From Fidelibacterota bacterium (GTDB lineage Bacteria > Fidelibacterota > Marinisomatia > Marinisomatales > UBA1611), in the NCBI GenBank assembly GCA_002718655.1, contig PBFM01000006.1, positions 1-61,310 of the forward strand: 61,310 nt of DNA. Direction: 5' to 3'. The stretch's first letter is position 1; each line of letters opens with the position of its first letter. Below the pieces are notes generated by a model. It was given only the letters and a program-made list of their open reading frames with translations. It searched no databases and was not told where the DNA came from. Below, one piece after another: positions 14,485 to 50,055 of the stretch. The translations under genes were made by a program, and so were the position numbers.

Positions 14485-14486
14485 GA

Positions 14487-15005
14487 ATGATGAGATTATC
14501 ACCGCCTATAGATTTTATGAAGTGGATAGATAATAATCGCCATTTACTTAAGCCTCCAGTTGGAAACAAAATCATCTATGAGGATGGGGATTTTATGATT
14601 ATGGTAATAGGAGGGCCTAATTCAAGAAAAGATTATCATGTGGATCCGGTTGAAGAATTCTTTTATCAATTGGAAGGAGATATGGTTTTGAAAATAATTG
14701 AAGATGGTAAGCGGGTTGACATACCAATCAAACAAGGTGAAATATTTTTACTTCCAAAGAAAGTACCTCATTCTCCTCAAAGAAATGATAATACAGTAGG
14801 ACTAGTTATCGAATATAAAAGAGATGAGGGAGAGTTAGATTATTTTCAATGGTACTGCGATAATTGTGATGCTTTACTTCATGAGATTAGTCTTGATCTC
14901 GAGGATATTGTTTCTCAACTGCCTCCACTCTTTAAAAAATATTGGGACGATTTAGCTTTGAGGACATGTGATCAATGTGGTGCAATCCAAGATCCACCAG
15001 AATAA
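14487..15005 (+). CDS. nbaC: 3-hydroxyanthranilate 3,4-dioxygenase
   Basis: Cupin with DYHVDPVEEFFYQLEGDM and VPHSPQR. C-terminal rubredoxin-like CDNCD...CDQCG site. ATG 14487 lies 2 nt after the RidA stop; the track's start at 14466 overlaps RidA. Confidence 0.85.
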   Translation: MMRLSPPIDFMKWIDNNRHLLKPPVGNKIIYEDGDFMIMVIGGPNSRKDYHVDPVEEFFYQLEGDMVLKIIEDGKRVDIPIKQGEIFLLPKKVPHSPQRNDNTVGLVIEYKRDEGELDYFQWYCDNCDALLHEISLDLEDIVSQLPPLFKKYWDDLALRTCDQCGAIQDPPE

Positions 15006-15012
15006 TATAATT

Positions 15013-16020: not shown

Positions 16021-17264
16021 TACATAATAAATCAAGAACTTATGCAGAGTTGATGGATCAAAGAGATAGTCTAAATGGATACCGTAATCTATTTAATTAT
16101 CCAAAAAATAATACTGGTGACCCCTTGATATATTTCTGTGGCAATTCTCTAGGACTGCAACCAAAAGCAGCATTTTCACAAATAAAAAAAGAATTCTCTG
16201 TTTGGTCAAATAAAGGCGTTTTAGGGCAGGATAGCAGATGGATTCCTTACCACGAGAGAATGACCAAGACTTCTGCAAAATTAGTTGGTGCAAAAGAAAC
16301 TGAAGTTGTTGTAATGAATGCATTAACTGTGAATATTCATTTATTACTAATATCATTTTATCAGCCTAGTAAAAAAAGACATAAAGTAATAATGGAGAAA
16401 GATGCTTTTCCATCCGATCAATATGCGATAAAAAGCCAGGTTGAATTACATGGCTATGATCCCAAAAATTCAATTATTGAAATCTCACCAAGGGATAAAG
16501 AGAAAATAATCAGAGAAAAAGATATTATTAGTTCAATTATTGAAAATAGAGATGAACTAGCACTGATATATATTGGGGGTGTTAATTATTATACTGGACA
16601 AGTATTTAATATGGAAAAAATATCTAAGGTAGCTAAGGAAAATAATATTACAATCGGTTTCAACCTTGCTCATGCAGCCGGGAATATTCCACTTTCTTTA
16701 CATGACTGGGAGGTTGATTTTTCATCATGGTGTACTTATAAGTATCTATGCGGTGGTCCAGGTTCACCTGCAGGAACTTTCATACATGAAAATCACCATG
16801 ATTGGAAAGGACCTAGATTAACAGGTTGGTGGGGACATAACAAAAAATCAAGATTTGAAATGCCTTCATCATTCGATCCAATACCTACATCTGAAGCATG
16901 GCAGATAAGTAATGCTCCAATTATGGGCATGGCTCCATTAATTGTTGCAATGGATATGTTTGACAAGGTTGGAATGGATAATATCCGTGAAAAAAGTATT
17001 CAATTAACCTCCTATTTGCAGTATTTAATTGAATGTTTTCTACCCTCCGTTAAAATCATTACACCAGATTCTAGAGGCTGTCAGTTATCAATTATTGTTC
17101 CAAACGGGAGAAAAATTTTCAATTTTCTCAATCAAAATGATGTGGTGTGTGATTGGAGAAATCCTGATGTGATTCGCGTTGCACCACATCCCCTATTCAA
17201 TACCTATGTTGAGGTTTATGAATTTATACAAATAATGAAAAAAGCAATTGAACAAGAAACATAA
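16017..17264 (+). CDS. kynU: Kynureninase
   Basis: 415 aa. FCGNSLGLQPK, PLP-Lys region WCTYKYLCGGPGS, RLTGWWGH. ATGA overlap with the ACMSD stop. Confidence 0.9.
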   Translation: MIHNKSRTYAELMDQRDSLNGYRNLFNYPKNNTGDPLIYFCGNSLGLQPKAAFSQIKKEFSVWSNKGVLGQDSRWIPYHERMTKTSAKLVGAKETEVVVMNALTVNIHLLLISFYQPSKKRHKVIMEKDAFPSDQYAIKSQVELHGYDPKNSIIEISPRDKEKIIREKDIISSIIENRDELALIYIGGVNYYTGQVFNMEKISKVAKENNITIGFNLAHAAGNIPLSLHDWEVDFSSWCTYKYLCGGPGSPAGTFIHENHHDWKGPRLTGWWGHNKKSRFEMPSSFDPIPTSEAWQISNAPIMGMAPLIVAMDMFDKVGMDNIREKSIQLTSYLQYLIECFLPSVKIITPDSRGCQLSIIVPNGRKIFNFLNQNDVVCDWRNPDVIRVAPHPLFNTYVEVYEFIQIMKKAIEQET

Positions 17265-18579
17265 AATTACAATCATAGGTTCTGGTTTAGCTGGACCATT
17301 GATGGCATCATATTTATCACAGAGAGGTTATGAAGTAAACATTTATGAGAAACGTCAAGATATGCGTATTCATAAACAATCTGCTGGGCGTTCAATAAAT
17401 CTCGCACTTTCGAAAAGAGGTATAGATTCCTTAAAGGATATTGGCTTGTATGATAAGGTTCGGTCAAAGATGTTACCAATGGCTGGGCGTATGATACATG
17501 ATATTGATGGTAAACAACACATGCAAAGATATGGTCAAAAAAATAATGAGGTTATTTACTCCATATCTAGATCATTTCTGAATAAAGTTCTCATTGACCA
17601 TGCTGAAAGCAAACCTAATGTTCAAATATTTTTCAATCAAAAATTGATTGAAGTTGAACTAAATAAATCTAAACTAATTTTTAATGAGGAAAGAAAAATT
17701 GTACCTTTTGAAATATTATTTGGGAGTGATGGATCTGCATCACCAGTAAGAAATTCAATGGAGGAAATTTCTTCAATAAATTTTAGAAAAATTCCACTTG
17801 ATCACGGATACAAAGAAATAAACATGCCACCAGATCTGGCAGGGAATTATCGTATGAATCCCAATGCATTGCATATATGGCCAAGAGGAAATTTCATGTT
17901 GATTGCACTACCAAACACTGACCATAGTTTTACATGTACTTTATTTTTTCCAATGCTAGGTGAATTAAGTTTTTCTTCAATAGATTCAGAAAATAAAATT
18001 ATAGAATTTTTCAAAATGCAATTTCCTGACATTATCGAAATGTTACCTAATCTTGTAGAAGATTATAAAAACAATCCTACAGGCAAACTTGCAACAGTAT
18101 ATTGTGATAAATGGAATTACAAAGGTAAGGCTCTAATATTTGGTGATGCAGCCCACGCAATAGTACCATTTTTTGGACAAGGCATGAATGCTTCTTTTCA
18201 AGATTGTAAAGTAATTGATCAAATGATTGAAAAGTATGAAGGGGACTGGAATGAGGTTTTCTCAAACTTTACCAAGAACCACAAACCTAATGGGCATGCG
18301 ATTGCTAATATGGCACTTGAGAATTATATAGAAATGAGAGGCTTGGTTAATGATGAAGGCTATATCAAAAAAAGGGAACTTGAGCTTAAACTTGAACTAG
18401 AATTTCCAAATAGATTTTTACCTAGATATTCTATGGTCTCATTTCATTCCTTACCTTATTCGGAGGTCTACAAAAGGGGAGAGATACAATCGAAATTAAT
18501 GGATGAATTCTTAGCGGGAAAAATCAATCAACAAGAATTGAAAGGCAAAATATTAAAAAAATTGGAAACCATTCTTTGA
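17248..18579 (+). CDS. kmo: Kynurenine 3-monooxygenase
   Basis: FAD fold KITIIGSGLAGPLMASYLSQRGYEVNIYEKR and FGDAAHAIVPFFGQGMN. TTG start overlapping the kynU end. Confidence 0.85.
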   Translation: MNKKHKITIIGSGLAGPLMASYLSQRGYEVNIYEKRQDMRIHKQSAGRSINLALSKRGIDSLKDIGLYDKVRSKMLPMAGRMIHDIDGKQHMQRYGQKNNEVIYSISRSFLNKVLIDHAESKPNVQIFFNQKLIEVELNKSKLIFNEERKIVPFEILFGSDGSASPVRNSMEEISSINFRKIPLDHGYKEINMPPDLAGNYRMNPNALHIWPRGNFMLIALPNTDHSFTCTLFFPMLGELSFSSIDSENKIIEFFKMQFPDIIEMLPNLVEDYKNNPTGKLATVYCDKWNYKGKALIFGDAAHAIVPFFGQGMNASFQDCKVIDQMIEKYEGDWNEVFSNFTKNHKPNGHAIANMALENYIEMRGLVNDEGYIKKRELELKLELEFPNRFLPRYSMVSFHSLPYSEVYKRGEIQSKLMDEFLAGKINQQELKGKILKKLETIL

Positions 18580-23002: not shown

Positions 23003-23533
23003 TTAGCAGATGATTCCATTAATACTATGGAACTTTAATTGTTTTCTCTCCACCTTACCTTTTTCAATATCATATATATCACAAGCATCATATGGCTTAG
23101 CATAAACATGTAAGCTTGAGGCAAATTCATCGGAAAGATTCTCGACTGAATGAATGTCTGCTGGGCCATCAAGAAAACCAGGCTCACAATTAAATTCTTG
23201 TATTTTGTTCAATCTTAAAGGATCTGCAGAAACTTGTTCATAATTACAAATTTTTAGTTTTCCCGTTTGCACCCTTGCCCAACATTTTTCACCTTCATGT
23301 CCATGTATCGGTGCTGATGCCATAGGGGGCCAGCAAATAATCATTATCTCAAAATCCGTTTCTTTATGAATAAGGTTTCTTGTATAAGTACTATCTTCAG
23401 TAAGGTGATATTTTTTTAGTATGCTCTCATTTAGTTTTAAGCTTGAAAGGTATGATGTAACATTTGGTACCGGAAAATCATATTCAGCAAAATCTTGTAA
23501 TTTTTGGATAATCTGATTTATCATATGCGACAT
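23003..23533 (-). CDS. Cupin-fold thiol dioxygenase, cysteine dioxygenase type I-like
   Basis: 176 aa. CWPPMASAPIHGHEGEKCWARVQTGKL and a later ADIHSVEN give a 3-His cupin pattern like CDO / 3-mercaptopropionate dioxygenase. Overlaps the 3' end of mobA by 13 nt. Confidence 0.6.
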   Translation of the reverse strand: MSHMINQIIQKLQDFAEYDFPVPNVTSYLSSLKLNESILKKYHLTEDSTYTRNLIHKETDFEIMIICWPPMASAPIHGHEGEKCWARVQTGKLKICNYEQVSADPLRLNKIQEFNCEPGFLDGPADIHSVENLSDEFASSLHVYAKPYDACDIYDIEKGKVERKQLKFHSINGIIC

Positions 23534-24114
23534 TTTTTGTTAGATGTAAGTTCTAATTTTTGTTTTACTAAATCCAAATCTTTTTTTGTGTTCATGTTCG
23601 AAAAGGAATCAATCAGTTTATTGCAGTCTACTTTCTGAAATTTAGTACATCTCACTAATTCATTTAGTCCAAAATTACTATCTTTTATCTGCTGAGTACA
23701 TATTTTGTGGACTCTTTTATGATAAAATGCACACATTGGTTGTAATTTTTTTTGTGTCATTGGTATAACTATGTCTGCCTTTTTATGTGAATGAGACCAC
23801 AAATGAAGAATAGATTCCTGACTGATTAAAGGCATGTCACATGATATTATGAAGTTCCATTCAGTCTGAGAATGATCTAATGCTGTGTATAGACCATTTA
23901 TTGGTGCACTCAGATTCAGTAGGTCTTTTATATATGGATATTTTAATTTTCTTGGTTTCTCCTTTCCAATTAAAAATTTTTTCTCAAAAATACTGCATGT
24001 ATCCCAAATCCTATCAAGAACCGTTTTGTCACCAATGGTGGTTTCCCATTTTGAAGACCCAAACCGCTTACTCTTTCCCCCTATTAGTATGTATGCTGTA
24101 GCAGATAAAATAAT
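23521..24114 (-). CDS. mobA: Molybdenum cofactor guanylyltransferase, apparently using a non-canonical (ATT) start
   Basis: The track reports only the C-terminal 104 aa, from an internal ATG. The frame stays open upstream to a TAA at 24159..24157. That stretch encodes AYILIGGKSKRFGSSKWETTIGDKTVLDRIWD...NGLYTALDHSQTEWNFIISCDMPLIS (the MobA nucleotide-binding N-terminus). No ATG/GTG/TTG is available. AGGAG (24124..24120) precedes two ATT codons at 24114 and 24111. Confidence 0.6.
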   Translation of the reverse strand: MILSATAYILIGGKSKRFGSSKWETTIGDKTVLDRIWDTCSIFEKKFLIGKEKPRKLKYPYIKDLLNLSAPINGLYTALDHSQTEWNFIISCDMPLISQESILHLWSHSHKKADIVIPMTQKKLQPMCAFYHKRVHKICTQQIKDSNFGLNELVRCTKFQKVDCNKLIDSFSNMNTKKDLDLVKQKLELTSNKKCRI

Positions 24115-24188
24115 AAATTCTCCTATATAATGATTAAAAAAATACCATATGATATATTATTTTCACACATTATCATAGGTAAAAAAAC

Positions 24189-25799
24189 ATGAATTATGGG
24201 TTTGTAATTGATAATCGATTATGCATCGGTTGTCATGCATGCACCGTTGCTTGTAAAAGTGAGCATGACGTTCCAATTGGAGTTAATCGTACTCATGTCA
24301 AATATATTGAAAAAGGAATTTTCCCAAATAGTTCTAGAGAATTCTCCGTGCATCGTTGTAATCATTGCTCCGATGCCCCTTGTGTTGAGATATGTCCTAC
24401 CACAGCATTATATACACGTACTGATGGCATAGTAGACTTTGATAATGACCGTTGCATTGGTTGTAAATCCTGTATGCAAGCCTGTCCCTATGATGCTCTA
24501 TACATCGATCCTGAAACTAATACTGCTGCAAAATGTAATTATTGCGCTCATAGAATTGATGGAGGATATGAACCTGCTTGTGTTATAGTATGTCCAGTTG
24601 AAGCAATTATATCAGGGGATGTAAATGATTCCAATTCAAAGATATCAAACCTTTTATCGAATGAAGAGACAATGGTCAGAAAACCAGAAAAGCAAACAGT
24701 TCCAAACCTTTATTACATTAATGGAAGTGATGAAATGTTGAATCCGAATCTTTCTGATGCAAATAAAGACTATGTTTGGTCAGGCCAATCAACTGGTGTT
24801 GGACACTATGCAAAATTTTCAGATAATCGTTTGTCTCAGTCTGATTCCGAAAATCTGCTCATACAACTAGCGATGGAAAATTCAGTAAGGTCAGGTAATC
24901 AAATTGACCAGCGTGCAGTTGACAATGTTGCAAAAGAAATTCAAAATGACATAGATTCAAAAGGGGTTCGTAGAGTTTATGATTCACCAAGCAAAGGTGT
25001 CTTATGGGGGTGGGAGGTCACGGGTTATGTTTGGACTAAAGCAATTGCAACAGGAACATTTCTTATGGCTGCGATGAGTAAATTTTTGAGCTTTGGAATA
25101 GATAAAATCTCTGAGATAAACAGTCTATTTATTACATTGTTTTTTATGTTGCTGACAGGTGCATTACTTGTCAAAGATCTTGATAGACCAGATAGATTTT
25201 TATATGTTCTACTGCGGCCACAATGGAAATCATGGTTAGTAAAAGGTGCTTATATCATATCCATATTTGGTGGCATTGTTACATTGTTGATAGCAGACTA
25301 TTATTATCTTAATATGAGAATACAATTTTTGTGGGTTTTTGGTGTGCTTTTTTCAGTCTTAGGTGCTGTCTATACCGCATTTCTTTTCAATCAAGCCCGA
25401 GCAAGAGATCTATGGCAATCTCCTTGGACTAGCTCATTACATATGTTGATACACGCTATAATGGCAGGAGCAGTTGCAATGATTTATTTATCTCCAGTCA
25501 CAATGCCTAAAATGATTTATGTATTAAAATATGCAATTATTGTAAATCTGGTTCTAATTGCAAAAGAATTAATTTTAAATGATGATAAAGGCGATATGAA
25601 AAAATCAATAAACATGATTATGAATGGATATTATTCAAGATACTTCTGGACTGGTATTCTCCTTGGTAACATACTACCATTTTGTCTGTTTTATTTATAT
25701 CCTGAATATGCATTATATGCTGGTACGTTGGTCCTATTAGGTAGTTATCTCACGGAATTTGTTAGAATTCGAGTTCCTCAAATGATTCCTTTGAGTTGA
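24189..25799 (+). CDS. Fused 4x[4Fe-4S] ferredoxin subunit (PsrB/DmsB/NrfC-like) and NrfD/PsrC-like quinone-interacting membrane subunit
   Basis: 536 aa. The N-terminal part has CIGCHACTVAC, CNHCSDAPC, CIGCKSCMQAC and CNYCAHR...CVIVCP. The C-terminal part has about eight hydrophobic helices. It starts directly with MNYGFVIDNRLC, with no twin-arginine leader. Confidence 0.8.
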   Translation: MNYGFVIDNRLCIGCHACTVACKSEHDVPIGVNRTHVKYIEKGIFPNSSREFSVHRCNHCSDAPCVEICPTTALYTRTDGIVDFDNDRCIGCKSCMQACPYDALYIDPETNTAAKCNYCAHRIDGGYEPACVIVCPVEAIISGDVNDSNSKISNLLSNEETMVRKPEKQTVPNLYYINGSDEMLNPNLSDANKDYVWSGQSTGVGHYAKFSDNRLSQSDSENLLIQLAMENSVRSGNQIDQRAVDNVAKEIQNDIDSKGVRRVYDSPSKGVLWGWEVTGYVWTKAIATGTFLMAAMSKFLSFGIDKISEINSLFITLFFMLLTGALLVKDLDRPDRFLYVLLRPQWKSWLVKGAYIISIFGGIVTLLIADYYYLNMRIQFLWVFGVLFSVLGAVYTAFLFNQARARDLWQSPWTSSLHMLIHAIMAGAVAMIYLSPVTMPKMIYVLKYAIIVNLVLIAKELILNDDKGDMKKSINMIMNGYYSRYFWTGILLGNILPFCLFYLYPEYALYAGTLVLLGSYLTEFVRIRVPQMIPLS

Positions 25800-28663
25800 C
25801 GATGAAACGGAGTTGGATCGAAACTTTCGCAGAAGGAATAGGCATCATACCTAAAATCTCAGACAGAGATGATGTTTCTGAAGAAACTGAAATAGTAGGT
25901 CCACGTGAATTATATAAATATCCAAAACCAAGTGAGTGGAATGATTTTGTTGAATTAGATGCTTTAGCGTGGCCTGAAAAAATAAAGAAACATTATTCCA
26001 TAGTCCCTACTACTTGCTTTAATTGCGAATCAGCCTGTGGACTTTTGGCTTACATTGATAAAGATTCTAATAAAGTCAGAAAATTTGAGGGTAATCCTTA
26101 TCACCCTGGTAGTAGAGGACGTAATTGTGCTAAAGGTCCAGCGACAATAAATCAGATCAATGATACTGAACGAATTCTTTATCCATTGAAAAGAGTAGGT
26201 AAAAGAGGTGAGGGTAAATGGGCACGAATTAGCTGGAGCGAAGCAATAGGTGAAATTTCAGAAAAGATTGCAAAGTCATTAAGAAAAAGGAAAGATGGTG
26301 TTGTCTATCACGTAGGCAGACCTGGCCATGAGGGTTATGCAGAACGTGTATTAAAAGCTTGGGGAGTTGATGGTCACAATTCTCATACCAATATTTGTTC
26401 TGCTGGTGCGAGAACAGGATATGCACTGTGGCATAAATACGATCGCCCTAGTCCTGACCATACGAATGCAGAAGTTATTCTTCTGGCATCTTCTCATCTT
26501 GAAACGGGTCATTATTTTAATCCTCACGCTCAAAGAATAATGGAAGGTATGATGAAAGGAGCAAAATTAATTGTGCTTGATCCACGACTTTCAAATACTG
26601 CATCAATGGCAGATGAATGGTTACCAACTTATCCTGGAAGTGAGACTGCAGTTTTTATGGCCATAGCAAAAATCATAGTTGAAGAAGGATTATACGATCG
26701 AAAATATTTGAAAGATTGGGTTAATTGGCAGGATTATCTTATAAAATTACACCCGAATGATCCAGTTGATTTTAATCAATTCATATACCGATTAAATGAA
26801 GAATGGAAAGAATACAGTCCCGAATTTGCTGCGGAAGAAGCACAAGTTGATAAAGAGCAAATAATACGTATAGCGAAATTAATAGGAAAAGCGGGAAGCA
26901 AATTTTCTTCACATGTATGGCGTGGACCATCAATTGGGAATCTAGGTGGGTGGCAGGTGTCTCGTGCCTTGCACCTTATTAACGTACTAACTGGGTCTGT
27001 CGGTACAAAGGGAGGAACATCGCCAAGCGCGTGGAATAAATTTCATCCAAAATTTTTTAATATTCCACCTGACCCAGATGCATGGAATGAACTTAATTGG
27101 CCTCCTGAGTATACGCTTTCCCATTATGAAATGAGCCAAATCCTACCTCATATGTTAAAAGATGATAGAGGTTCTTTAGATGTTTACTTTACCCGCGTTT
27201 TTAATCCTGTGTGGACTTATCCTGATGGTTTTACATGGATTGAGATGTTGTCCGATATGGAGAAGGTTGGTTGCCATGTTGCCTTAACGCCTACTTGGAA
27301 TGAGACTGCATTTTTTGCTGACTACGTTTTGCCGATGGGGCATGCATCTGAGCGACACGATCTTAACTCATATGAGACTCAGGCTGGCATTTGGATCGCA
27401 TTTCGCCAGCCGGTAATGCGAGAAAAAGCCCGTAGAGATGGTAAAGAGGTTGAATTTACGCACGAGGTCAACCCAGGAGAAGTATGGGAAGAAGATGAAT
27501 TCTGGATAGAGCTTTCATGGGAGATTGATAAAAATCAGGACTTGGGAATTCGAAAACATTTCATGAGTCCCTACAGAAAAGGAAAAAAAATCAACATTGA
27601 TGAGTACTATCAATATATATTTGAAAACACTAAAGGGTTACCAGAAAAGGCAAATGAGGAAGGAATAACTCCTTTGGATTATATGAGAAAATATGGAGCA
27701 TTTTTAGTTGACGATAACATTTACAATAATAATGAAAAAAAAATAGAGTCTAATGGACCAATAGAAATAAATGATTACAACCAAATCAGAAAGGACGGGA
27801 AGATCATTGGTTTAAAAGTGGATGATAAAATGCTTTCAGGATACCCTACCCCCTCAAAAAAACAAGAAATATATTCTCAAACCATGGTTGATTTTGGATA
27901 TCCCGACCATGCTACGCCTGGCTACAGGATAAGGAGCCACGTTCACCCTGATAAAATAGATAAGAATAAAAATGAATGTATCCTGTTACCAAATTTTAGA
28001 CTACCTACCCATATACATTCCCGTTCAGCCAATGCAAAATGGCTGACAGAAATCGCTCATAGAAATCCCATTTGGATACATGCAAATGATGCAAAAAGAG
28101 TGGGTGTAAATGATGGTGATTTGATTAAAGTTACAACAGAGATTGGATGGTTTGTTGATAAGGTATGGATTACTGAAGCGATTAAACCAGGTATTGTAGC
28201 TTGTTCCCATCATATTGGCAGATGGAGGAGAAAACAAGATGAGGGAAACCGATTTATGACCAATACGGTTAACATTCTAAGTATGGGAAATGGAAAATGG
28301 AAAATGGAAACTATTGAGGGAGTTCGTTCTTGGAAGACAAAAGACCCTGATACTAATAGGATTTGGTGGAGAGATGGAGGAGTGCATCAAAATATTACCC
28401 ATCCTGCAAATCCAGATCCAATTTCAGGTGCACACTGTTGGTTACAGAAAGTTCGAATATCAAAACCCAAGGCAAATGAGAATTATGGTGATATATTTGT
28501 TGACACGAATAAATCTTTTGAGCATTACAAGAAATGGAACCAGTGGGCGAAGGATAAAGAAGTTCATCCCAATGGATTAAGAAGACCACTTTGGATGGGT
28601 AGACCTTTATTGCCACAAAAAGAACAATTTTTTATAAAAAACTTATTTGATAACAATTCCTAA
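25796..28663 (+). CDS. Molybdopterin (bis-MGD) oxidoreductase catalytic subunit, no Tat signal; SoeA-like candidate
   Basis: 955 aa. FS0 motif CFNCESACGLLAY...RNCAKG, probable Mo-ligand Cys in NSHTNICSAGAR, C-terminal PDPISGAHCWLQKVRISK. The N-terminus MTMKRSWIETFAEG lacks an RR motif and a hydrophobic h-region. TTGA overlap with the upstream gene (alternative ATG at 25802). Confidence 0.8.
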   Translation: MTMKRSWIETFAEGIGIIPKISDRDDVSEETEIVGPRELYKYPKPSEWNDFVELDALAWPEKIKKHYSIVPTTCFNCESACGLLAYIDKDSNKVRKFEGNPYHPGSRGRNCAKGPATINQINDTERILYPLKRVGKRGEGKWARISWSEAIGEISEKIAKSLRKRKDGVVYHVGRPGHEGYAERVLKAWGVDGHNSHTNICSAGARTGYALWHKYDRPSPDHTNAEVILLASSHLETGHYFNPHAQRIMEGMMKGAKLIVLDPRLSNTASMADEWLPTYPGSETAVFMAIAKIIVEEGLYDRKYLKDWVNWQDYLIKLHPNDPVDFNQFIYRLNEEWKEYSPEFAAEEAQVDKEQIIRIAKLIGKAGSKFSSHVWRGPSIGNLGGWQVSRALHLINVLTGSVGTKGGTSPSAWNKFHPKFFNIPPDPDAWNELNWPPEYTLSHYEMSQILPHMLKDDRGSLDVYFTRVFNPVWTYPDGFTWIEMLSDMEKVGCHVALTPTWNETAFFADYVLPMGHASERHDLNSYETQAGIWIAFRQPVMREKARRDGKEVEFTHEVNPGEVWEEDEFWIELSWEIDKNQDLGIRKHFMSPYRKGKKINIDEYYQYIFENTKGLPEKANEEGITPLDYMRKYGAFLVDDNIYNNNEKKIESNGPIEINDYNQIRKDGKIIGLKVDDKMLSGYPTPSKKQEIYSQTMVDFGYPDHATPGYRIRSHVHPDKIDKNKNECILLPNFRLPTHIHSRSANAKWLTEIAHRNPIWIHANDAKRVGVNDGDLIKVTTEIGWFVDKVWITEAIKPGIVACSHHIGRWRRKQDEGNRFMTNTVNILSMGNGKWKMETIEGVRSWKTKDPDTNRIWWRDGGVHQNITHPANPDPISGAHCWLQKVRISKPKANENYGDIFVDTNKSFEHYKKWNQWAKDKEVHPNGLRRPLWMGRPLLPQKEQFFIKNLFDNNS

Positions 28664-28681: not shown

Positions 28682-29257
28682 TTGAAAAAAGGTCTATTTC
28701 CATTGTACAAACGTTCAAGATTTCTAATTGGATTTTCCATATTCCTATTATGTTGCGAATCAAATGAGCACATACGTAAATATCGTTTACCAAAAAACAC
28801 AATGGAGGGAAAAAACAAAAGCCAAAAAATCCCTATTGAATTTCAAATAGGGTGGATAAAACCGAAGTCATGGAAAGAGGTTAAAGGTCATGCAATGAGG
28901 TATGCGAGTTTTAACGCGCCCTATGTTGATGGAAATGCTGACATATCTATAACTACATTCGAGGGTAATAGTGGTGGTATTGTTCCTAATGTCAATAGAT
29001 GGTTAGGGCAAATTGGTATAGAACCATATTCCAGCGATAAAATTTTGAATATTGAAGAAAAGATGAAAAGTAAATTAGGTGAATATTCTTATTTTAAGTT
29101 GATCAATGAAAAAAATAATGAAACTGCAATCCTTGCTGCAATATTTGAACTTAAAAATAGAACCCTTTTTATAAAACTATCGTCTACTTTGAAAGGTCTA
29201 AGAAGTATTGAAACAGAATTCATTGGATTCTGTTCATCGATTTTCATAAAAGGTTAG
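28682..29257 (+). CDS. Hypothetical lipoprotein
   Basis: 191 aa from a TTG start, giving a signal/lipobox-like FSIFLLCC. No recognisable domain. Ends 2 nt before the ResB-like gene. Confidence 0.45.
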   Translation: MKKGLFPLYKRSRFLIGFSIFLLCCESNEHIRKYRLPKNTMEGKNKSQKIPIEFQIGWIKPKSWKEVKGHAMRYASFNAPYVDGNADISITTFEGNSGGIVPNVNRWLGQIGIEPYSSDKILNIEEKMKSKLGEYSYFKLINEKNNETAILAAIFELKNRTLFIKLSSTLKGLRSIETEFIGFCSSIFIKG

Positions 29258-29259
29258 AG

Positions 29260-30381
29260 ATGCTGGACCTTATCACCAAATTATTAAGCAGTCCTAGAAT
29301 ATTTTCATACACTGTTTTGTGGATGATAGTGCTTGTGTTTTTTGGCACTTTAGCACAAAAAGATATTGGATTATATGCCTCTCAAATGAAATACTTTTCA
29401 TCATACTATTTTACAGTAGGTGGTTTCATACCTGTTCCCGGTGGCAGATCTGTTCTTCTGCTAATGACTATCAACCTCGCGTTTAGTTTATTTAAGAAAA
29501 ATTTATGGAAAATGAAAAAAGTAGGTATAATTATTGTTCATGTTGGGGGATTACTATTATTACTTGGTGGAGGTATAACAGCTCAATTTAGCTCAGAAGG
29601 GAATATGGTAATTTCTGAAGGTGAGACAATAAATTATGTTGATGATTATTTTGACATGGAATTAGTATTTGTCAATACCTCACTTCAAGATAGTCTCGAA
29701 TATACTGTTTTTGATGAACCTTTATTAGAAAATGGAACCAAAATCATTTACGATGAACTTAATCTACAAATAGATATTATAGACCACATAAAGAATGTGA
29801 GAATTGAACAACGCATTTCCACTGCTGACACTATTTACAAGGGATTTTTAAATGAATTCATACTTTTACCAAAAAAACCTGAAAAGGAAGCGACACAAAA
29901 CAGACCAGGGATAGTAATTAAATTATCTGGGCTCAATAATTCGCAGGATGGTATTTACGGAATTTTTCTTGGTCAAAAAACGCCTGATACATTTCAAATC
30001 AATGGCAATCTATTTTTTATTGAATTTAGGAGAAAACGTACTTATATACCATTTTCCATTAATCTTTTAGATTTTGAAAAAGTTATGCATCCCGGGACCA
30101 ATGTTGCAAAAAGCTATAGCTCAGAAATCAATCTTATTGAGGATGCCATCTCAAGAAGAATCTTAATAAAAATGAATGAACCATTGAGGCATGCGGGTTA
30201 TACATTTTATCAGGCATCCTTCGTTGACGGCCTAGATAAAGAGACTAGTGTTTTGGCGGCCGTAAAAAATTATGGAAGACTTTTTCCGTATATATCAAGC
30301 ATTATAATGAGTATAGGCCTCTTAATACACCTTCTAATACATCTTCCGAAAATGCTGGAGAGGAGGAGCAATACTATTTAA
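29260..30381 (+). CDS. resB: ResB/Ccs1-like cytochrome c biogenesis protein (System II)
   Basis: 373 aa. N-terminal TM with FFGTLAQKDIG, TM His in IIIVHVGGLLLLLGG, C-terminal ...AGYTFYQASF...TM. Immediately upstream of ccsA. Confidence 0.65.
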   Translation: MLDLITKLLSSPRIFSYTVLWMIVLVFFGTLAQKDIGLYASQMKYFSSYYFTVGGFIPVPGGRSVLLLMTINLAFSLFKKNLWKMKKVGIIIVHVGGLLLLLGGGITAQFSSEGNMVISEGETINYVDDYFDMELVFVNTSLQDSLEYTVFDEPLLENGTKIIYDELNLQIDIIDHIKNVRIEQRISTADTIYKGFLNEFILLPKKPEKEATQNRPGIVIKLSGLNNSQDGIYGIFLGQKTPDTFQINGNLFFIEFRRKRTYIPFSINLLDFEKVMHPGTNVAKSYSSEINLIEDAISRRILIKMNEPLRHAGYTFYQASFVDGLDKETSVLAAVKNYGRLFPYISSIIMSIGLLIHLLIHLPKMLERRSNTI

Positions 30382-30383
30382 AG

Positions 30384-32003
30384 ATGAGAAATTATTTAAT
30401 TTGTATATTGCTTTGCATTAGTACTCAACTTCTAGGATTTGGTATTGGTGACATACCCATTCAGGATGAAGGAAGAATAAAACCACTAGATACTTTTGCG
30501 CGTAACCATCTACTAGCTTTTTATGGAAAACGTACGCTTACCAACATCAATCTAAGTGCAACTGATTGGCTACTAGATTTGATACTTAATCCTAAATCTG
30601 GTAGAGATCAAAAGATATTCAATATCAGAAATCCAGAAGTTGCCTCTAGTCTCTTTCTTGTCTGGACATCAGAACATAAATATAGCTTCAATGAAATAGC
30701 TCCAGGGCTACGTGAACAAGCCTCACTTATTTCAGTCATTGATCAGAAAAATAATGAAGACAGAAGTATTTTTGAAAAGCAATTGTTTGAGCTAAGTAAA
30801 AACATTCTCCGATTTGAAGAATTGAGTTATCTCAAGGCAATCAAACTTATTCCTCCTAGTAATGGAAGTGAAAACAGTGAGTGGTTCTCTCCTTTTGATT
30901 TTATAGTTAAAAGAGTACCTTCAGACAACAACCAAAATGAAATACTGAGCTCAATACAATTATATCTTGCTGGACGTATGAGCAAAGATGAGGCACAGAT
31001 GGATTCCGCTCTTTATAATTACGAAACAGCGCTTGCTTCCTTTGTCGACCAAGATATAAATATACCAGTTTTAGAAAAAGAATCTTGGATGAATAAAGCA
31101 CGTCTTTTTCAAATGAGTTTAGGCTTTTATTTGGCTGCATTCGTTTTTTTAGCATTTAGTTGGATGATAAAACCCATATTGTTAAACAAGCTATCATACG
31201 TATTGTTGGCTCTTGGAACATTGGTACATGGATATGCAATATTAGTTAGAATGTATATAATGGGTCGTCCGCCTGTTACAACATTATATGAATCTGTTAT
31301 TTTTGTTTCCTTTATTATTGTACTATTATCTATAGTATTAGAACGATTTAGAAGAGATGGACTTGGAGTATTTGTGGGTTCTGTGAGTGGTGCCATTCTC
31401 CATTTCATTGGATTTAGCTATGCCTCAGATGGGGATACTCTTGGAATGCTCGTCGCAGTTTTAAATTCGAATTTTTGGCTTGCAACGCATGTAACTACTA
31501 TCACTATTGGTTATGGTGCATCATTAATGGCTGGGCTTGTTGGACACCTATATCTGATATTTCTAGTAAAGAAAGAAAAAAATGAAACGGTTTTGAATAG
31601 TATATTCAAAAATTTATTTGGAATTACATTAATAGCACTGTTTTTTACTTTATTTGGTACTATTCTTGGGGGTATTTGGGCTGATCAATCGTGGGGAAGA
31701 TTCTGGGGGTGGGATCCAAAAGAAAATGGTGCTCTTTTAATTGTATTGTGGCAATTAATGATGATTCATATGAGGTTATCAGGTCTAGCTAAACCTGCAG
31801 AGTTTGCTTTAGGGATGGGACTGAATAATATCATTGTCGCTTTAGCATGGTTTGGGGTGAATCTTTTACAGGTTGGGTTACATAGCTATGGTTTCGATGA
31901 TGGAGTTGCTAGAAACTTATATGTTTTTATTGTTTTAGAGTTATTTTTCTGTTTAGGATTGTATTTTTTTCAAAAATACAAAGTTAAAATTAACTTAGCC
32001 TAA
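30384..32003 (+). CDS. ccsA: Cytochrome c assembly protein CcsA/ResC (System II heme handling)
   Basis: 539 aa. Trp-rich heme-binding WWD region GGIWADQSWGRFWGWDPKENGALL followed by a conserved His (MMIHMR). Multiple TM helices. Confidence 0.8.
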   Translation: MRNYLICILLCISTQLLGFGIGDIPIQDEGRIKPLDTFARNHLLAFYGKRTLTNINLSATDWLLDLILNPKSGRDQKIFNIRNPEVASSLFLVWTSEHKYSFNEIAPGLREQASLISVIDQKNNEDRSIFEKQLFELSKNILRFEELSYLKAIKLIPPSNGSENSEWFSPFDFIVKRVPSDNNQNEILSSIQLYLAGRMSKDEAQMDSALYNYETALASFVDQDINIPVLEKESWMNKARLFQMSLGFYLAAFVFLAFSWMIKPILLNKLSYVLLALGTLVHGYAILVRMYIMGRPPVTTLYESVIFVSFIIVLLSIVLERFRRDGLGVFVGSVSGAILHFIGFSYASDGDTLGMLVAVLNSNFWLATHVTTITIGYGASLMAGLVGHLYLIFLVKKEKNETVLNSIFKNLFGITLIALFFTLFGTILGGIWADQSWGRFWGWDPKENGALLIVLWQLMMIHMRLSGLAKPAEFALGMGLNNIIVALAWFGVNLLQVGLHSYGFDDGVARNLYVFIVLELFFCLGLYFFQKYKVKINLA

Positions 32004-34708: not shown

Positions 34709-35584
34709 ATGATACCTGGTGCATTTGATTATCATTCGCCTAAGACTTTAGACGAAGCAATTAATTTATTAAACGACCTTGGTGAGGATGCTAAGATTCT
34801 TGCTGGGGGTCATAGCCTATTGCCAATGATGAAATGGAGACTTGCAGAGCCTGCTCACCTTGTAGACATAAGTCGCTTATCTGACCTTGATTACATTAAG
34901 GAGGAAAATGGATTTCTATGTTTAGGCGCAATGGTCACAGAATCAGGTTTGGAAAATTCAGAGTTGATTGCTGAAAAATATCCTATTCTTAAAGATACCT
35001 CTGAGGTTATAGCTGATCCTCTAGTTCGTAACTTGGCATCGATTGGTGGGAATATTGCACATGGTGATCCTGCCAATGATCATCCTGCAACAATGTTAGC
35101 TCTCAATGCAATTGTGGTGGTTTGTGGTCCAAACGGTTCCAAAAGAGAGATTAACATAGATGAATTTTTTCTTGGTCCGTTATGGACTGCACTGGGGGAA
35201 AATGAAATCTTAACTGAGATTAAAATACCTATGCCTAAACAGCAATCTGGAGGTTGCTATATAAAACTTGAGAGGAAAGTAGGAGATTATGCCATTGCAG
35301 CTTCTGCCGTCACCTTAGATTTTGAAAATGGAAAGTGTAGCTCCTCAGGAATAGCTTTGACAAATGTAGGCCCCACTCCCGTACGTGCTAAGGATGCACA
35401 GGATGTTCTTATTGGAACAGATGTATCTAATGAAGTCATAGAGCAAGCTAGTAATTTGGCTGCAGAAGCATCTCAGCCTGTTGGAGATCATCGCGGATCG
35501 GAAGAGTATAAGCGTGGTGTGGTGAAAACATTGACAGGTCGTGCTATTCTGAAAGCAAAAAATAGAGCAATGGGAGGTAATTAA
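34709..35584 (+). CDS. coxM: Aerobic CO dehydrogenase medium (FAD-binding) subunit
   Basis: 291 aa. [14 protein letters not shown] and [16 protein letters not shown] motifs. M-S-L gene order. Confidence 0.85.
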
Positions 35585-35585
35585 A

Positions 35586-36077
35586 ATGGAAAAAAAATCA
35601 ATTACAATAAATATTAATGGTAGTCCAAGAACGGGAGAGGTAGAAGATCGACTTCTTCTAGTCCACTTTATAAGAGATGATTGCGCATTAACTGGTACGC
35701 ATATTGGATGCGATTCTACACATTGCGGTGCTTGTACGGTTTTACTTGATGGTACGGCAGTAAAGTCTTGTACTGTCTTAGCAGTGCAAGCAGATGGAAG
35801 AGAAGTTGCAACGATTGAGGGAATGGAAGGTGAAGCTTTACATCCTCTTCAAGAAGGCTTTTTTGAAGAACATGGTTTACAGTGTGGTTTTTGCACTCCC
35901 GGTATGATCATGTCAGCAAAACATTTACTGGATAATAATCCAAAACCGAGCGAGGAGGAGATTAGATGTGGTATATCAGGAAATCTTTGTAGATGTACTG
36001 GATATCAAAACATTGTAAAATCGGTGCAATATGCATCAAATAAACTTCAATCGTCTGAATCAGCAGGAGGCAAATAA
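35586..36077 (+). CDS. coxS: Aerobic CO dehydrogenase small ([2Fe-2S]) subunit
   Basis: [26 protein letters not shown] and NLCRCTGY motifs. Confidence 0.9.
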
Positions 36078-49813: not shown

Positions 49814-50055
49814 TAAAAATAAAAATAAAATGTTTTTCACAGGTCAGATATGCTTTAGGAAAAGACGAAATAGCTCTTGAATTAGATGAAGGTACAACTT
49901 CAGATGATTTGGAAAAAATGATTCGTGAAAAAGCGCTAGGTAAATTAGAAAATGTGACTCTAGGCATTGCAATAAATAAGAAATATGTTCTCGATGACAC
50001 CAAGCTAAATGATGGGGATGAAATAGCCTTCATTCCGCCAGTTCAAGGAGGGTAA
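49810..50055 (+). CDS. moaD: Molybdopterin synthase sulfur-carrier subunit
   Basis: 81 aa, ubiquitin-like, ends in PPVQGG. Confidence 0.85.
   Translation: MIKIKIKCFSQVRYALGKDEIALELDEGTTSDDLEKMIREKALGKLENVTLGIAINKKYVLDDTKLNDGDEIAFIPPVQGG

What the first reader, a model, noticed from the sequence alone, without database searches (positions are those of the whole stretch)
23003..28663. Tat-less, cytoplasm-facing bis-MGD molybdoenzyme with fused FeS-NrfD subunit, paired with mobA and a cysteine-dioxygenase-like gene
One polypeptide (24189..25799) joins a four-cluster PsrB/DmsB-type ferredoxin to an eight-helix NrfD/PsrC-type membrane anchor. Its stop overlaps (TTGA) the start of a 955-aa catalytic subunit with an FS0 Cys motif and a probable Cys Mo ligand. 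Neither protein has a twin-arginine leader, so the active site should face the cytoplasm, unlike Psr/Phs/Ttr/Dms enzymes. The fusion would also fix the membrane subunit in the inverted topology. The only characterised enzymes I know with a large Tat-less catalytic subunit plus FeS and NrfD partners are the SoeABC sulfite:quinone oxidoreductases. Those have three separate genes in A-B-C order, whereas here it is (B-C fused)-A. About 75 bp away and divergent are mobA (makes the MGD cofactor form) and an overlapping cupin thiol dioxygenase, whose sulfinate product is a route to sulfite. Hypothesis: a compact thiol-to-sulfinate-to-sulfite-to-sulfate module that donates electrons to quinone.
Basis: partly seen in the sequence, partly recalled or inferred. 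Interest (0 to 1): 0.7.

Follow-up and report, generated by a model that had tools for sequence, protein, structure and literature searches.

The report
Inward-facing two-gene molybdenum sulfite dehydrogenase candidate
This marine bacterium carries a widespread but unnamed two-gene, membrane-bound molybdenum enzyme whose active site faces the cell interior; it most likely burns toxic sulfite to sulfate and passes the electrons to the respiratory chain, a step that ocean gene surveys do not currently credit to these abundant microbes.

Summary
Window 24189..25799 encodes one 536-aa protein: a 16-Cys, four-cluster PsrB-like ferredoxin joined to an eight-helix NrfD/PsrC anchor. It is followed at once by a 953/955-aa Mo-bisPGD catalytic subunit with an FS0 motif and a Cys ligand. 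Neither protein has a Tat signal. Loop charge bias puts the ferredoxin side in the cytoplasm in 71 of 71 fused homologues. The bias is reversed or absent in the unfused anchors of Tat-bearing relatives.

The pair is a very conserved family. It occurs in at least 593 GTDB species at 59% identity or more, including SAR406, MGII archaea, Bacteroidota, Planctomycetota, Rhodococcus jostii, Thermomicrobium and haloarchaea. No source names it beyond generic terms.

The cdo-mobA neighbours are lineage-specific (4 and 8 of 80 loci). The commonest neighbours are rhodanese–MBL persulfide-dioxygenase-like genes, SulP sulfate permeases, YeeE/YedE, type III SQR and TauE. CsoR-, BigR- and sigma-54-type regulators sit beside the operon in single loci.

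Best reading (about 0.58): a cytoplasm-facing sulfite:quinone oxidoreductase that works like SoeABC. Membership of the SoeABC family is not shown. The gene architecture differs, the nearest relatives are Tat-exported B-C-A enzymes, and I could not obtain a SoeA sequence.

The parts
24189..25799 (+). Fused electron-transfer and membrane-anchor subunit (536 aa). It has a PsrB-like four-[4Fe-4S] ferredoxin domain, a linker of about 95 aa, and an eight-helix NrfD/PsrC domain. There is no signal peptide.
   Evidence: ORF. Pfam Fer4_11 and NrfD. TtrB/NrfC/DsrO-like matches start after those profiles' signal regions. A fused homologue lies within three called ORFs of the catalytic gene, mostly directly upstream, in 73 of 80 genome loci.
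24189..24728 (+). Ferredoxin domain (aa 1-180) with 16 Cys in four cluster motifs.
   Evidence: Best PDB relative is PsrB 2vpw_B, E 3e-51, over aa 3-181. Cys conservation is shown.
25011..25799 (+). NrfD/PsrC-type eight-helix quinone-site domain (aa 275-536), predicted N-in and C-in. This is inverted relative to periplasm-facing Psr-type anchors.
   Evidence: Hydropathy. AF2 helices at 275-299, 306-330, 349-374, 380-405, 412-434, 436-462, 483-503 and 505-532. Foldseek top hit is 2vpw_C. K+R count is 13 on the N-terminal side against 3 on the other side; the family mean is 11.6 against 1.0, and the bias holds in 71 of 71.
25796..28663 (+). Tat-less Mo-bisPGD catalytic subunit. It is 955 aa from the TTG that overlaps the upstream stop, or more likely 953 aa from the ATG at 25802.
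   Evidence: No NCBIfam equivalog cut-off is reached; the best is PhsA at 202 bits against 694.
26015..26128 (+). FS0 [4Fe-4S] motif: C74-x2-C77-x3-C81 ... C111.
   Evidence: Invariant in alignment A1 and across the tree set.
26396..26398 (+). Codon of Cys201, the probable Mo ligand, within the invariant SHTNICSAGAR.
   Evidence: It aligns with the ArrA Cys in SHSSVCAEAHK. It is invariant in the core family.
24115..24188 (.). Short AT-rich divergent intergenic region between mobA-cdo and the BC-A operon.
   Evidence: Sequence. Promoter-like hits are no more frequent than in shuffled sequence, so no promoter is claimed.
23521..24114 (-). mobA (molybdenum cofactor guanylyltransferase) without a canonical start codon. 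It is a local accessory gene, not a conserved part of the system.
   Evidence: The frame is open to 24138, with ATT codons at 24114 and 24111 after GGAGAA. The full-length match to MobA NF001457 is 1.8e-34. It is found in 8 of 80 loci.
23003..23533 (-). Cysteine dioxygenase type I (176 aa), overlapping the mobA stop by 13 nt. It is a local, SAR406-specific source of sulfinate and hence sulfite.
   Evidence: Pfam CDO_I 4e-18. Rat CDO 2b5h E 2e-15, with equivalents of YTRNL (Arg60), His86/His88, Cys93, His140 and Tyr157. It is found in only 4 of 80 loci.

Best explanation
The two genes encode a membrane-bound complex iron-sulfur molybdoenzyme that is mounted 'inside-out' compared with polysulfide, thiosulfate, tetrathionate or DMSO reductases. 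The catalytic subunit and the ferredoxin domain stay in the cytoplasm. The NrfD domain is inserted with its N- and C-termini inside.

The most likely reaction is oxidation of cytoplasmic sulfite to sulfate at the Mo-bisPGD site. Electrons would pass through FS0 and the four clusters of the fused ferredoxin to (mena)quinone bound in the NrfD domain on the cytoplasmic side. The quinol then feeds the aerobic respiratory chain.

The sulfite would come from persulfide dioxygenase in most lineages. In this SAR406 genome it would come from cysteine, via the adjacent cysteine dioxygenase and a transaminase encoded elsewhere. Sulfate (or excess sulfite) would leave through the SulP or TauE transporters often encoded alongside.

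Shown here: the domain content, the cofactor motifs, the absence of export signals, the charge-bias topology, the conservation and the gene neighbourhoods.
Inferred: the substrate, the direction of electron flow and the quinone as acceptor.

The B-C fusion is best seen as a consequence of losing Tat export. Once the ferredoxin no longer has to cross the membrane folded, it can be translated as the N-terminal domain of the anchor.
For: Anatomy and cofactor motifs.

No Tat signal: none in 79 + 120 catalytic N-termini, and the ferredoxin starts directly at its first Cys motif.

Topology: K+R is 11.6 on the N-terminal side against 1.0 on the other side in 71 of 71 fused proteins. The homologous unfused anchors of Tat-type relatives show 4 vs 6, 4 vs 13, 2 vs 7 and 9 vs 9. 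The TM domain matches the PsrC fold.

Fusion tracks loss of Tat. All six Tat-less lineages examined have a fused BC: the core family, Rhodococcus, Thermomicrobium, Natrinema, and the P0244, P0245 and P0246 loci. All four Tat-bearing relatives have separate B and C.

Sulfur context:
- Among 61 loci with at least 4 neighbours, 39 have a sulfur-linked gene within three genes: SulP 25, rhodanese-MBL 21, YeeE/YedE 7 and 4 for the two halves, SQR-like 6, TauE 3.
- In a Pfam tally of 300 neighbour ORFs, the top families are Rhodanese (21), Lactamase_B (18), Sulfate_transp/STAS (16) and Sulf_transp (7).
- The SQR-like neighbour matches type III sulfide:quinone reductase at 4e-67.
- Rhodococcus jostii pRHL3 places the operon after DsrE and TusA and among three MBL-fold genes, with a BigR-like ArsR regulator.
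- Thermomicrobium has a CsoR-family regulator directly upstream.
- A 38%-identical Myxococcota relative has a sigma-54 activator, MBL-rhodanese and YeeE halves.
- In the window itself an Arg-type cysteine dioxygenase is adjacent.

Active site: R175, H197, T198, C201 and R206 are invariant and align with ArrA's oxyanion-pocket residues. This is weak evidence, because other Arr/Arx/Psr-like clades share them.

The only characterised NrfD-type enzyme held to face the N-side is SoeABC, a sulfite:quinone oxidoreductase (PMC8076601).
Against: - There is no biochemical or genetic evidence for any member of the family.
- Guilt by association points to 'sulfur', not uniquely to sulfite. Rhodanese-PDO fusions also make thiosulfate, and YeeE/YedE proteins are linked to thiosulfate or polysulfide transport.
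- About a third of loci with enough flanking sequence show no sulfur neighbour, among them most Poseidoniales loci.
- The closest relatives are Tat-exported enzymes of unknown function, not a characterised sulfite dehydrogenase.
- IMG gives these proteins only COG-level names where it gives Psr-like relatives a KO-style name, so they do not appear to meet its soeA criteria.
- AF2 did not model the ferredoxin domain (pLDDT about 25), so its docking onto the anchor is not shown.
Confidence: 0.58

Rival explanations
1. The architecture and orientation are the same, but the physiological substrate is a different cytoplasmic sulfur species. One option is thiosulfate or persulfide/polysulfide, the products of the neighbouring rhodanese-PDO fusion and SQR. 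Another is Phs running in reverse (sulfide + sulfite to thiosulfate), with electrons going to quinone.
For: The neighbours are rhodanese-MBL fusions, YeeE/YedE 'sulphur transport' halves, SQR, DsrE and TusA. All of these handle sulfane sulfur or thiosulfate. The best NCBIfam and PDB relatives are PhsA, PsrA and ArrA.
Against: SulP sulfate permeases are the most frequent near neighbours, and TauE 'sulfite exporter' family genes also occur. The CDO in the window yields a sulfinate and then sulfite, not sulfane sulfur. From general knowledge, quinol cannot drive thiosulfate or polysulfide reduction efficiently in aerobes, and the carriers are mostly aerobic heterotrophs.
Confidence: 0.2
2. This is a dedicated cysteine or thiol catabolic module. 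cdo, mobA and the molybdoenzyme would form one functional unit converting thiols through sulfinate and sulfite to sulfate.
For: cdo and mobA lie divergently next to the operon in the window and in its closest SAR406 relatives (L006, L008). The CDO keeps all the catalytic residues of true cysteine dioxygenases. Peptide and amino-acid catabolic genes lie upstream.
Against: cdo occurs in only 4 of 80 loci and mobA in 8 of 80. Another SAR406 relative (L010) has the rhodanese-MBL gene in the upstream position instead. No transaminase or desulfinase is present to release sulfite. The enzyme family is far wider than the cdo association.
Confidence: 0.12
3. The enzyme is a quinol-dependent cytoplasmic reductase, or an oxidase of a non-sulfur oxyanion or oxide such as arsenite, selenite, or an S- or N-oxide.
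For: The anion-pocket residues are shared with ArrA/Arx-like enzymes. A Tat-less 'Soe-like' paralogue in Thioalkalivibrio has been proposed to act on arsenite (PMC6620896).
Against: The surveyed neighbourhoods contain no arsenic, selenium or DMSO/TMAO genes. The Mo ligand is Cys, not the Ser or Asp of S-/N-oxide and nitrate reductases.
Confidence: 0.07
4. The complex is in fact periplasmic and reaches the periplasm by a cryptic or piggy-back route, so it is an ordinary Psr/Ttr-like reductase.
For: Its nearest relatives are Tat-exported enzymes with the same B-C-A gene order.
Against: No RR motif or hydrophobic region is found in about 200 N-termini. The ferredoxin is covalently N-terminal to TM1 and has no signal. 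The charge bias places that side in the cytoplasm in 71 of 71 proteins, and it differs in the Tat-type relatives. The operon has no Tat-signal-bearing partner.
Confidence: 0.03

Closest known systems
SoeABC sulfite:quinone oxidoreductase (Allochromatium vinosum, Aquifex aeolicus)
   Same: It has a large Mo-bisPGD subunit of about 109 kDa (size recalled from Dahl et al. 2013, not held), a four-cluster ferredoxin and a haem-less NrfD/PsrC anchor. No subunit has a Tat signal, so the active site is held to face the cytoplasm and the anchor to be inverted (PMC8076601, PMC5114278). It sits in a sulfur-oxidation context.
   Different: SoeABC is three separate genes in the order A-B-C. Here there are two genes in the order (B-C fused)-A. 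Kinship could not be tested because I could reach no SoeA sequence. Every Tat-less relative found among the 150 best 50%-identity representatives that I examined is of the fused type, and none is A-B-C. IMG does not name these proteins SoeA. Ocean surveys assign soeABC mainly to Alpha- and Gammaproteobacteria (PMC7565560, PMC10580873), whereas this family is in SAR406, MGII, Bacteroidota, Planctomycetota, Actinomycetota, Thermomicrobia and haloarchaea.
Unnamed Tat-dependent B-C-A molybdoenzymes of Myxococcota, Campylobacterota and Aquificota (about 1110-aa catalytic subunit; e.g. P0248; Sulfurovum mangrovi plasmid)
   Same: They are the closest sequence relatives: 43% identity, in a joint clade with 100% bootstrap. 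They share the B-C-A gene order, the N-terminal 'YPP.E.W' segment, the SHTNxC Mo-ligand motif and the anchor C-terminus ...PQ[LM][IL]PLS.
   Different: The catalytic subunit has a Tat signal. B (212 aa) and C (287 aa) are separate. A NarJ/TorD-type chaperone and a polyferredoxin follow. The anchor charge bias is opposite or neutral. The PDO/SulP context is absent in the two loci seen. Their function is also unknown.
Polysulfide reductase PsrABC of Thermus thermophilus (PDB 2VPZ/2VPW)
   Same: It is the best solved relative of the ferredoxin domain (E 3e-51) and of the anchor fold (TM-score 0.78). PsrA is the second-best solved relative of the catalytic subunit.
   Different: It is periplasmic and Tat-exported, has three separate subunits, and its catalytic subunit is about 190 aa shorter. 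Identity to the catalytic subunit is confined mostly to the N-terminal half.
Respiratory arsenate reductase ArrAB / Arx-type enzymes
   Same: ArrA is the best solved relative of the catalytic subunit (6cz7_A, E 5e-36). Its oxyanion-pocket residues have invariant counterparts here: R165/H189/S190/C193/K198 in ArrA, R175/H197/T198/C201/R206 here. The ArrA numbering is from memory and fits the chain index plus 40.
   Different: ArrAB is periplasmic and Tat-exported. No arsenic genes lie nearby here. Tyr166 of ArrA is Pro here. The pocket residues are shared by several other clades, so they are not diagnostic.

Membership tests
Mo/W-bisPGD (DMSO reductase / MopB) superfamily, complex iron-sulfur molybdoenzymes | Catalytic subunit with Molybdop_Fe4S4, Molybdopterin and Molydop_binding domains, an FS0 Cys motif and an amino-acid Mo ligand | tested here: met
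   Pfam hits. C74/C77/C81/C111 and C201 are invariant.
Mo/W-bisPGD (DMSO reductase / MopB) superfamily, complex iron-sulfur molybdoenzymes | Four-cluster ferredoxin partner and a quinone-reactive membrane anchor | tested here: met
   16 conserved Cys and a PsrB match at 3e-51. NrfD Pfam hit and PsrC fold.
SoeABC sulfite dehydrogenase (quinone) | No Tat signal on the catalytic or ferredoxin subunit; cytoplasmic orientation | tested here: met
SoeABC sulfite dehydrogenase (quinone) | Haem-less eight-helix NrfD/PsrC anchor, inverted relative to Psr-type anchors | tested here: met
   Eight helices and the PsrC fold. The positive-inside bias is on the N-terminal side in 71 of 71 fused proteins and is opposite or neutral in Tat-type relatives.
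SoeABC sulfite dehydrogenase (quinone) | Three separate subunits encoded as soeA-soeB-soeC | tested here: not met
   Two genes; B and C are one polypeptide and precede A.
SoeABC sulfite dehydrogenase (quinone) | Catalytic subunit groups phylogenetically with A. vinosum / A. aeolicus SoeA | not testable with these tools
   No SoeA sequence was available: none in PDB, NCBIfam or plasmids, and the papers are not held. Indirect signs are negative. IMG gives COG names only, and no unfused A-B-C Tat-less relative appears among those of the best 150 representatives that I examined.
SoeABC sulfite dehydrogenase (quinone) | Sulfite-dependent quinone reduction | not testable with these tools
   This needs an enzyme assay. 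Only gene-context support exists.
Periplasmic Psr/Phs/Ttr/Arr-type reductases | Twin-arginine signal on the catalytic subunit and export of the A-B dimer to the periplasm | tested here: not met
   No RR motif with a hydrophobic region. The ferredoxin is fused N-terminally to the anchor, on the K/R-rich side.
Periplasmic Psr/Phs/Ttr/Arr-type reductases | Score above the NCBIfam equivalog cut-offs (PhsA, TtrA, ArrA, DmsA) | tested here: not met
   Best is PhsA at 202 bits against a cut-off of 694. TtrB is 181 against 416.
Cysteine dioxygenase type I (neighbour gene) | Cupin fold with a 3-His iron site, a substrate-carboxylate Arg and a Tyr (with or without the Cys cross-link partner) | tested here: met
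   Pfam CDO_I scores 65.9 bits against a cut-off of 23. The alignment to rat CDO shows equivalents of YTRNL, HxH, Cys93, His140 and Tyr157.
MobA molybdenum cofactor guanylyltransferase (neighbour gene) | Full-length match to the MobA equivalog models and an intact reading frame with a start codon | tested here: inconclusive
   The match is end to end (aa 6-188 against profile 3-198/200, E 1.8e-34), but at 119 bits it is below the cut-off of 164. There is no ATG/GTG/TTG start; ATT is possible.

The most novel reading that the evidence does not exclude
The fused BC-A enzymes are not derived from SoeABC. They are an independent lineage that arose from a Tat-exported B-C-A ancestor by losing export, flipping the NrfD anchor and fusing the ferredoxin to it.

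On this reading they are the main route from sulfite to sulfate (with electrons entering the quinone pool) in some of the most abundant ocean heterotrophs: SAR406, Marine Group II archaea, and Saprospiraceae/Flavobacteriaceae. They would also serve soil and extremophile lineages. This route is invisible to KEGG soeABC-based surveys.
Probability: 0.33. Interest if true: 0.8.

Novelty: new variant of a known kind. Interest (0 to 1): 0.62.

Why it matters
Cytoplasmic sulfite is the common toxic end product of persulfide, cysteine and organosulfonate breakdown. Ocean heterotrophs turn over very large amounts of organic sulfur. Current metagenome surveys credit direct sulfite oxidation (soeABC) almost only to Alpha- and Gammaproteobacteria (PMC7565560, PMC10580873).

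If this conserved, unnamed two-gene enzyme is a sulfite:quinone oxidoreductase, several things follow:
- SAR406, MGII archaea, marine Bacteroidota and many other phyla gain an energy-yielding sulfite sink.
- Sulfur budgets based on soeABC are undercounted.
- The family offers a natural experiment in how a respiratory enzyme is turned round in the membrane: loss of Tat export, reversal of the anchor's charge bias, and gene fusion.

The idea is directly testable, because cultured carriers exist: Rhodococcus jostii RHA1, Thermomicrobium roseum, Lutibacter aestuarii, Gaetbulibacter, Flavilitoribacter and Natrinema.

Tried and rejected
**1. Obtaining a SoeA reference for a direct phylogeny.** This failed everywhere.
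- No solved structure and no NCBIfam model.
- None on PLSDB plasmids. The Azoarcus hit is Arx-like, and the Caballeronia and Enterobacteriaceae hits are unrelated or DmsA-like.
- The Dahl 2013 and Boughanemi 2020 papers are not held.
- Cluster look-ups of 20 distant representatives gave no useful names.
- The third homologue search, on the Tat-bearing sister P0248, returned only unnamed proteins.

**2. Literature.** I searched for a described FeS-NrfD-fused Soe, for PSRLC3, and for SAR406/MGII sulfite oxidation. Nothing described this family. Wells et al. 2023 (PMC10100899) describe a large, highly conserved 'bSreA/SoeA' radiation. Whether it includes this family could not be determined.

**3. 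AF2 model of the fusion.** The ferredoxin domain was not modelled (pLDDT about 25 with a shallow 30-sequence alignment), so I drew no conclusion on how it docks.

**4. Representatives P0282 and P0304.** These turned out to be frameshifted long-read contigs and were uninformative.

**5. Promoter and terminator scans.** Hits were no more frequent than in shuffled sequence, so I did not use them.

**6. Active-site comparison with ArrA.** The pocket residues are conserved but are shared by several clades. I downgraded this to weak evidence.

**7. Downstream ResB/CcsA genes and the 191-aa ORF.** These are not conserved next to the operon outside the closest relatives, so I rejected them as parts of the system.

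Full report
**What is in the window**

- 24189..25799 encodes a 536-aa protein. Its first 180 residues carry four complete Cys motifs (16 Cys) and match Fer4_11. The TtrB, NrfC and DsrO models match only after their signal regions. The best solved relative is PsrB (2vpw_B, E 3e-51).
- Residues 275-536 match NrfD and form eight hydrophobic helices.
- An AlphaFold model gives the membrane domain pLDDT mostly above 85. Its best PDB fold match is PsrC (2vpw_C, TM-score 0.78). The ferredoxin domain was not modelled.
- The next gene encodes a 955-aa protein with the three MopB Pfam domains. It has the FS0 motif C74/C77/C81/C111 and an invariant Cys201 that aligns with the Cys in the SHSSVC motif of ArrA.

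The TTGA stop/start overlap is real. However, an ATG 6 nt downstream fits the homologues' N-termini and other assemblies' gene calls better, giving 953 aa.

The window comes from a marine SAR406/Marinimicrobia genome. Identical segments occur in TARA Oceans contigs and in GCA_001757085.1.

**Orientation**

The catalytic N-terminus (MKRSWIETFAEGIGIIPK...) has no twin arginine and no hydrophobic stretch. The same holds for 79 locus-encoded and 120 database homologues. The only RR pairs sit just before FS0. The maximum 13-aa hydropathy averages about 0.8, against 1.0-2.1 in Tat-bearing relatives. The ferredoxin starts directly at its first Cys motif.

I then mapped the eight TM cores onto an alignment and counted K+R in the loops.

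| Set | K+R, N-terminal side | K+R, other side |
|---|---|---|
| 71 fused proteins (mean; bias present in 71 of 71) | 11.6 | 1.0 |
| Unfused anchor, P0248 locus (Tat-type) | 4 | 6 |
| Unfused anchor, Sulfurovum (Tat-type) | 4 | 13 |
| Unfused anchor, Azoarcus (Tat-type) | 2 | 7 |
| Unfused anchor, P0272 locus (Tat-type, poorly aligned) | 9 | 9 |

By the positive-inside rule, the ferredoxin side of the fused proteins is cytoplasmic. The anchor is therefore inverted relative to its periplasm-facing relatives. This is the same proposal made in the literature for SoeC (PMC8076601).

**How widespread and how conserved**

- The catalytic subunit has thousands of relatives in marine metagenomes. Single 90%-identity clusters hold up to about 2,600 sequences.
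The 80 best loci (59-83% identity) come from Marinimicrobia, Poseidoniales/MGII and other Thermoplasmatota, Saprospiraceae, Flavobacteriaceae, Cyclobacteriaceae, Planctomycetota, Pyrinomonadaceae, KSB1, Calditrichota and others. Cultured carriers include Flavilitoribacter nigricans, Lutibacter aestuarii and Gaetbulibacter sp..
- PLSDB adds Rhodococcus jostii RHA1 pRHL3, the Thermomicrobium roseum megaplasmid and several haloarchaeal replicons at 49-54% identity.
- Eleven members from different phyla and both domains share 76% mean column identity.
- No source names the proteins beyond 'molybdopterin-dependent oxidoreductase', '4Fe-4S dicluster domain-containing protein' or COG names.

**Relatives and the origin of the fusion**

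A search of 1.84 billion 50%-identity representatives gave two kinds of nearest non-family relative.
- Tat-less proteins, each with a fused BC gene directly upstream: P0244 (38%), P0245 (41%) and P0246 (43%).
- Tat-bearing proteins: P0248 (43%, 1115 aa), P0281, P0272, a Sulfolobaceae protein and a Sulfurovum mangrovi plasmid gene. Where the locus was read (P0248, P0272, Sulfurovum), B and C are separate genes, still in the order B-C-A. In the P0248 and Sulfurovum loci a NarJ/TorD-type chaperone and a polyferredoxin follow.

I built a neighbour-joining tree (40 sequences, 781 columns, 100 bootstraps).
- All of these group in one clade with 100% support.
- The core Tat-less family is monophyletic at 96%.
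- PhsA, DmsA, an Arx-like protein and other Tat-type representatives fall outside.

Every Tat-less lineage examined has the fusion, and every Tat-bearing one has separate B and C. My inference is that loss of export allowed, or selected for, translating the ferredoxin as the N-terminal domain of the anchor.

The Tat-bearing sister family occurs in Myxococcota, Campylobacterota and Aquificota. It is also unnamed.

**Gene neighbourhoods**

I called ORFs in the 80 loci and clustered them.
- A fused BC gene lies within three called ORFs of the catalytic gene, mostly directly upstream, in 73 of 80 loci. In most of the other seven the contig ends at or just upstream of the catalytic gene.
- The cdo-like gene is present in only 4 loci: close SAR406 relatives and one Mariniblastus locus.
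- mobA is present in 8 loci.
- The most frequent neighbours are a rhodanese + metallo-beta-lactamase-fold protein of the persulfide-dioxygenase type (32 loci, found in bacteria and archaea), SulP-STAS sulfate permeases (28), an SQR-like flavoprotein (10; type III SQR, 4e-67), the two YeeE/YedE halves (10 and 9), Crp/Fnr regulators (6), MoaD/MoaE, and TauE/SafE in archaea.
- Within three genes, 39 of 61 loci with enough flank have at least one of these sulfur genes.
- An unbiased Pfam tally of 300 neighbour ORFs is headed by Rhodanese (21), Lactamase_B (18), Sulfate_transp/STAS (16) and Sulf_transp (7).

Individual loci add detail.
- In Rhodococcus the operon follows DsrE and TusA. It lies among three MBL-fold genes, thioredoxin and a BigR-like ArsR regulator.
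- Thermomicrobium has a CsoR-family regulator directly upstream.
- The Myxococcota relative has a sigma-54 activator, MBL-rhodanese and YeeE halves.

From general knowledge, CstR (CsoR family), BigR/SqrR (ArsR family) and FisR (sigma-54) are the three known persulfide-responsive regulator types.

**Most likely mechanism**

Persulfide dioxygenase, cysteine dioxygenase followed by transamination, and sulfonate lyases all release sulfite in the cytoplasm. That is established biochemistry, not tested here. I propose the following steps.
1. The Mo-bisPGD site oxidises sulfite to sulfate.
2. [quoted passage not shown]
3. The quinol is reoxidised by the aerobic chain.
4. Sulfate or sulfite leaves through SulP or TauE.

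In this SAR406 window the adjacent gene is a true Arg-type cysteine dioxygenase, with equivalents of YTRNL, HxH, Cys93, His140 and Tyr157 of rat CDO. Peptide and amino-acid catabolic genes lie upstream. Cysteine is therefore a plausible local source of sulfite.

The anatomy, orientation, conservation and context are shown. The substrate, direction and acceptor are inferred. My confidence is about 0.58. The main rival (about 0.2) is another cytoplasmic sulfur substrate, such as thiosulfate or polysulfide.

**Comparison with what is known**

The system works like SoeABC, the only characterised NrfD-type enzyme held to face the cytoplasm (PMC8076601). It meets the Tat-less, NrfD-anchor and inverted-orientation criteria. 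It fails the three-gene A-B-C criterion.

Phylogenetic membership could not be tested, because I could reach no SoeA sequence with the tools. The indirect signs are negative.
- IMG gives only COG names, although it gives a KO-style name to Psr-like relatives.
- No unfused Tat-less A-B-C relative appears among those of the 150 best representatives that I examined.
- Ocean surveys attribute soeABC mainly to Alpha- and Gammaproteobacteria (PMC7565560, PMC10580873).

Wells et al. 2023 describe a large, highly conserved bSreA/SoeA radiation (PMC10100899). Whether it includes this family is unknown.

The orientation argument is strengthened by an independent test. The 'sulfite:quinone, Soe-like' idea gains family-wide context support.

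The specific cdo-mobA module is not conserved, so it is at most a local arrangement. The Tat-less family is sister to periplasmic enzymes, not nested among them with a hidden signal.

**Novelty and score**

I file this as a new variant of a known kind: a two-gene, BC-fused, inward-facing complex iron-sulfur molybdoenzyme. It is widespread, uncharacterised, and testable in cultured hosts. Interest is 0.62.

It would rise to about 0.8 if the family proves independent of SoeABC and is the main sulfite sink of SAR406, MGII and marine Bacteroidota.

Noticed in passing
window 23521..24138 (-): mobA has an open frame back to 24138 but no ATG/GTG/TTG before the conserved YILIGGKSKRFG motif. Only ATT codons at 24114 and 24111 follow a GGAGAA. 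Gene callers on identical TARA contigs call just the 104-aa C-terminal half, whereas SAR406 relatives (L006, L007) start with ATG at the equivalent place. It is either a rare ATT start or a decaying gene.
   Followed up: partly
window 23003..23533 (-): The bacterial cysteine dioxygenase keeps both partners of the eukaryote-type Cys93-Tyr157 cross-link as well as Arg60 and the 3-His site. It is closer to mammalian CDO (E 2e-15) than to the solved bacterial CDOs (E about 1e-7).
   Followed up: partly
L096 (P0248 locus), L098, L087 (Sulfurovum mangrovi plasmid), and proteins P0405-P0523: A Tat-exported sister family is also unnamed in all sources. It has a catalytic subunit of about 1110 aa, separate B and C genes in the order B-C-A, then a NarJ/TorD-type chaperone and a 359-aa polyferredoxin, with a cytochrome c upstream. 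It occurs in Myxococcota, Sulfurimonas/Nitrosophilus/Thiovulum and Persephonella/Hydrogenothermus.
   Followed up: partly
L088 (Rhodococcus jostii pRHL3) 10799..11968; L090 (Natrinema halophilum) 11011..12171: An Mrp/NBP35-family ATPase (an Fe-S cluster carrier type) lies immediately downstream of the catalytic gene and overlaps it, in an actinobacterium and in a haloarchaeon. It may be a dedicated maturation factor.
   Followed up: no
proteins P0041, P0048, P0073; loci L012-L021: Marine Group II archaeal (Poseidoniales) copies are 65-70% identical to the SAR406 protein. They branch inside the bacterial sequences in the NJ tree, which suggests transfer between domains among co-occurring plankton.
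   Followed up: partly
window about 14189..18579 (+): There is a run of tryptophan/kynurenine-pathway genes: RidA, 3-hydroxyanthranilate dioxygenase, an ACMSD-like amidohydrolase, kynureninase and a KMO-like flavoprotein. A membrane dipeptidase, rpe, tkt and rpiB follow. This fits a peptide- and amino-acid-degrading lifestyle.
   Followed up: no
window 28682..32003 (+); also about 34864..35900 and 49831..50439: Downstream of the operon are a small putative lipoprotein and the ResB/CcsA system II cytochrome c biogenesis genes. They are conserved only in the closest relatives. Further on lie a xanthine-dehydrogenase-family flavoprotein/[2Fe-2S] pair and moaD/moaE.
   Followed up: partly
proteins P0244 and P0245 (loci L091, L101): Two divergent Tat-less relatives with fused BC partners seem to lack the Mo-ligand Cys in my alignment. 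P0245 also lacks two of the FS0 cysteines. This could be misalignment, assembly error or cofactor-less paralogues.
   Followed up: no
window 23885..24130 (+) and 28290..28580 (+): The 81-aa and 96-aa ORFs in the mechanical ORF list lie antisense to mobA and inside the catalytic gene respectively. They are most likely spurious.
   Followed up: no
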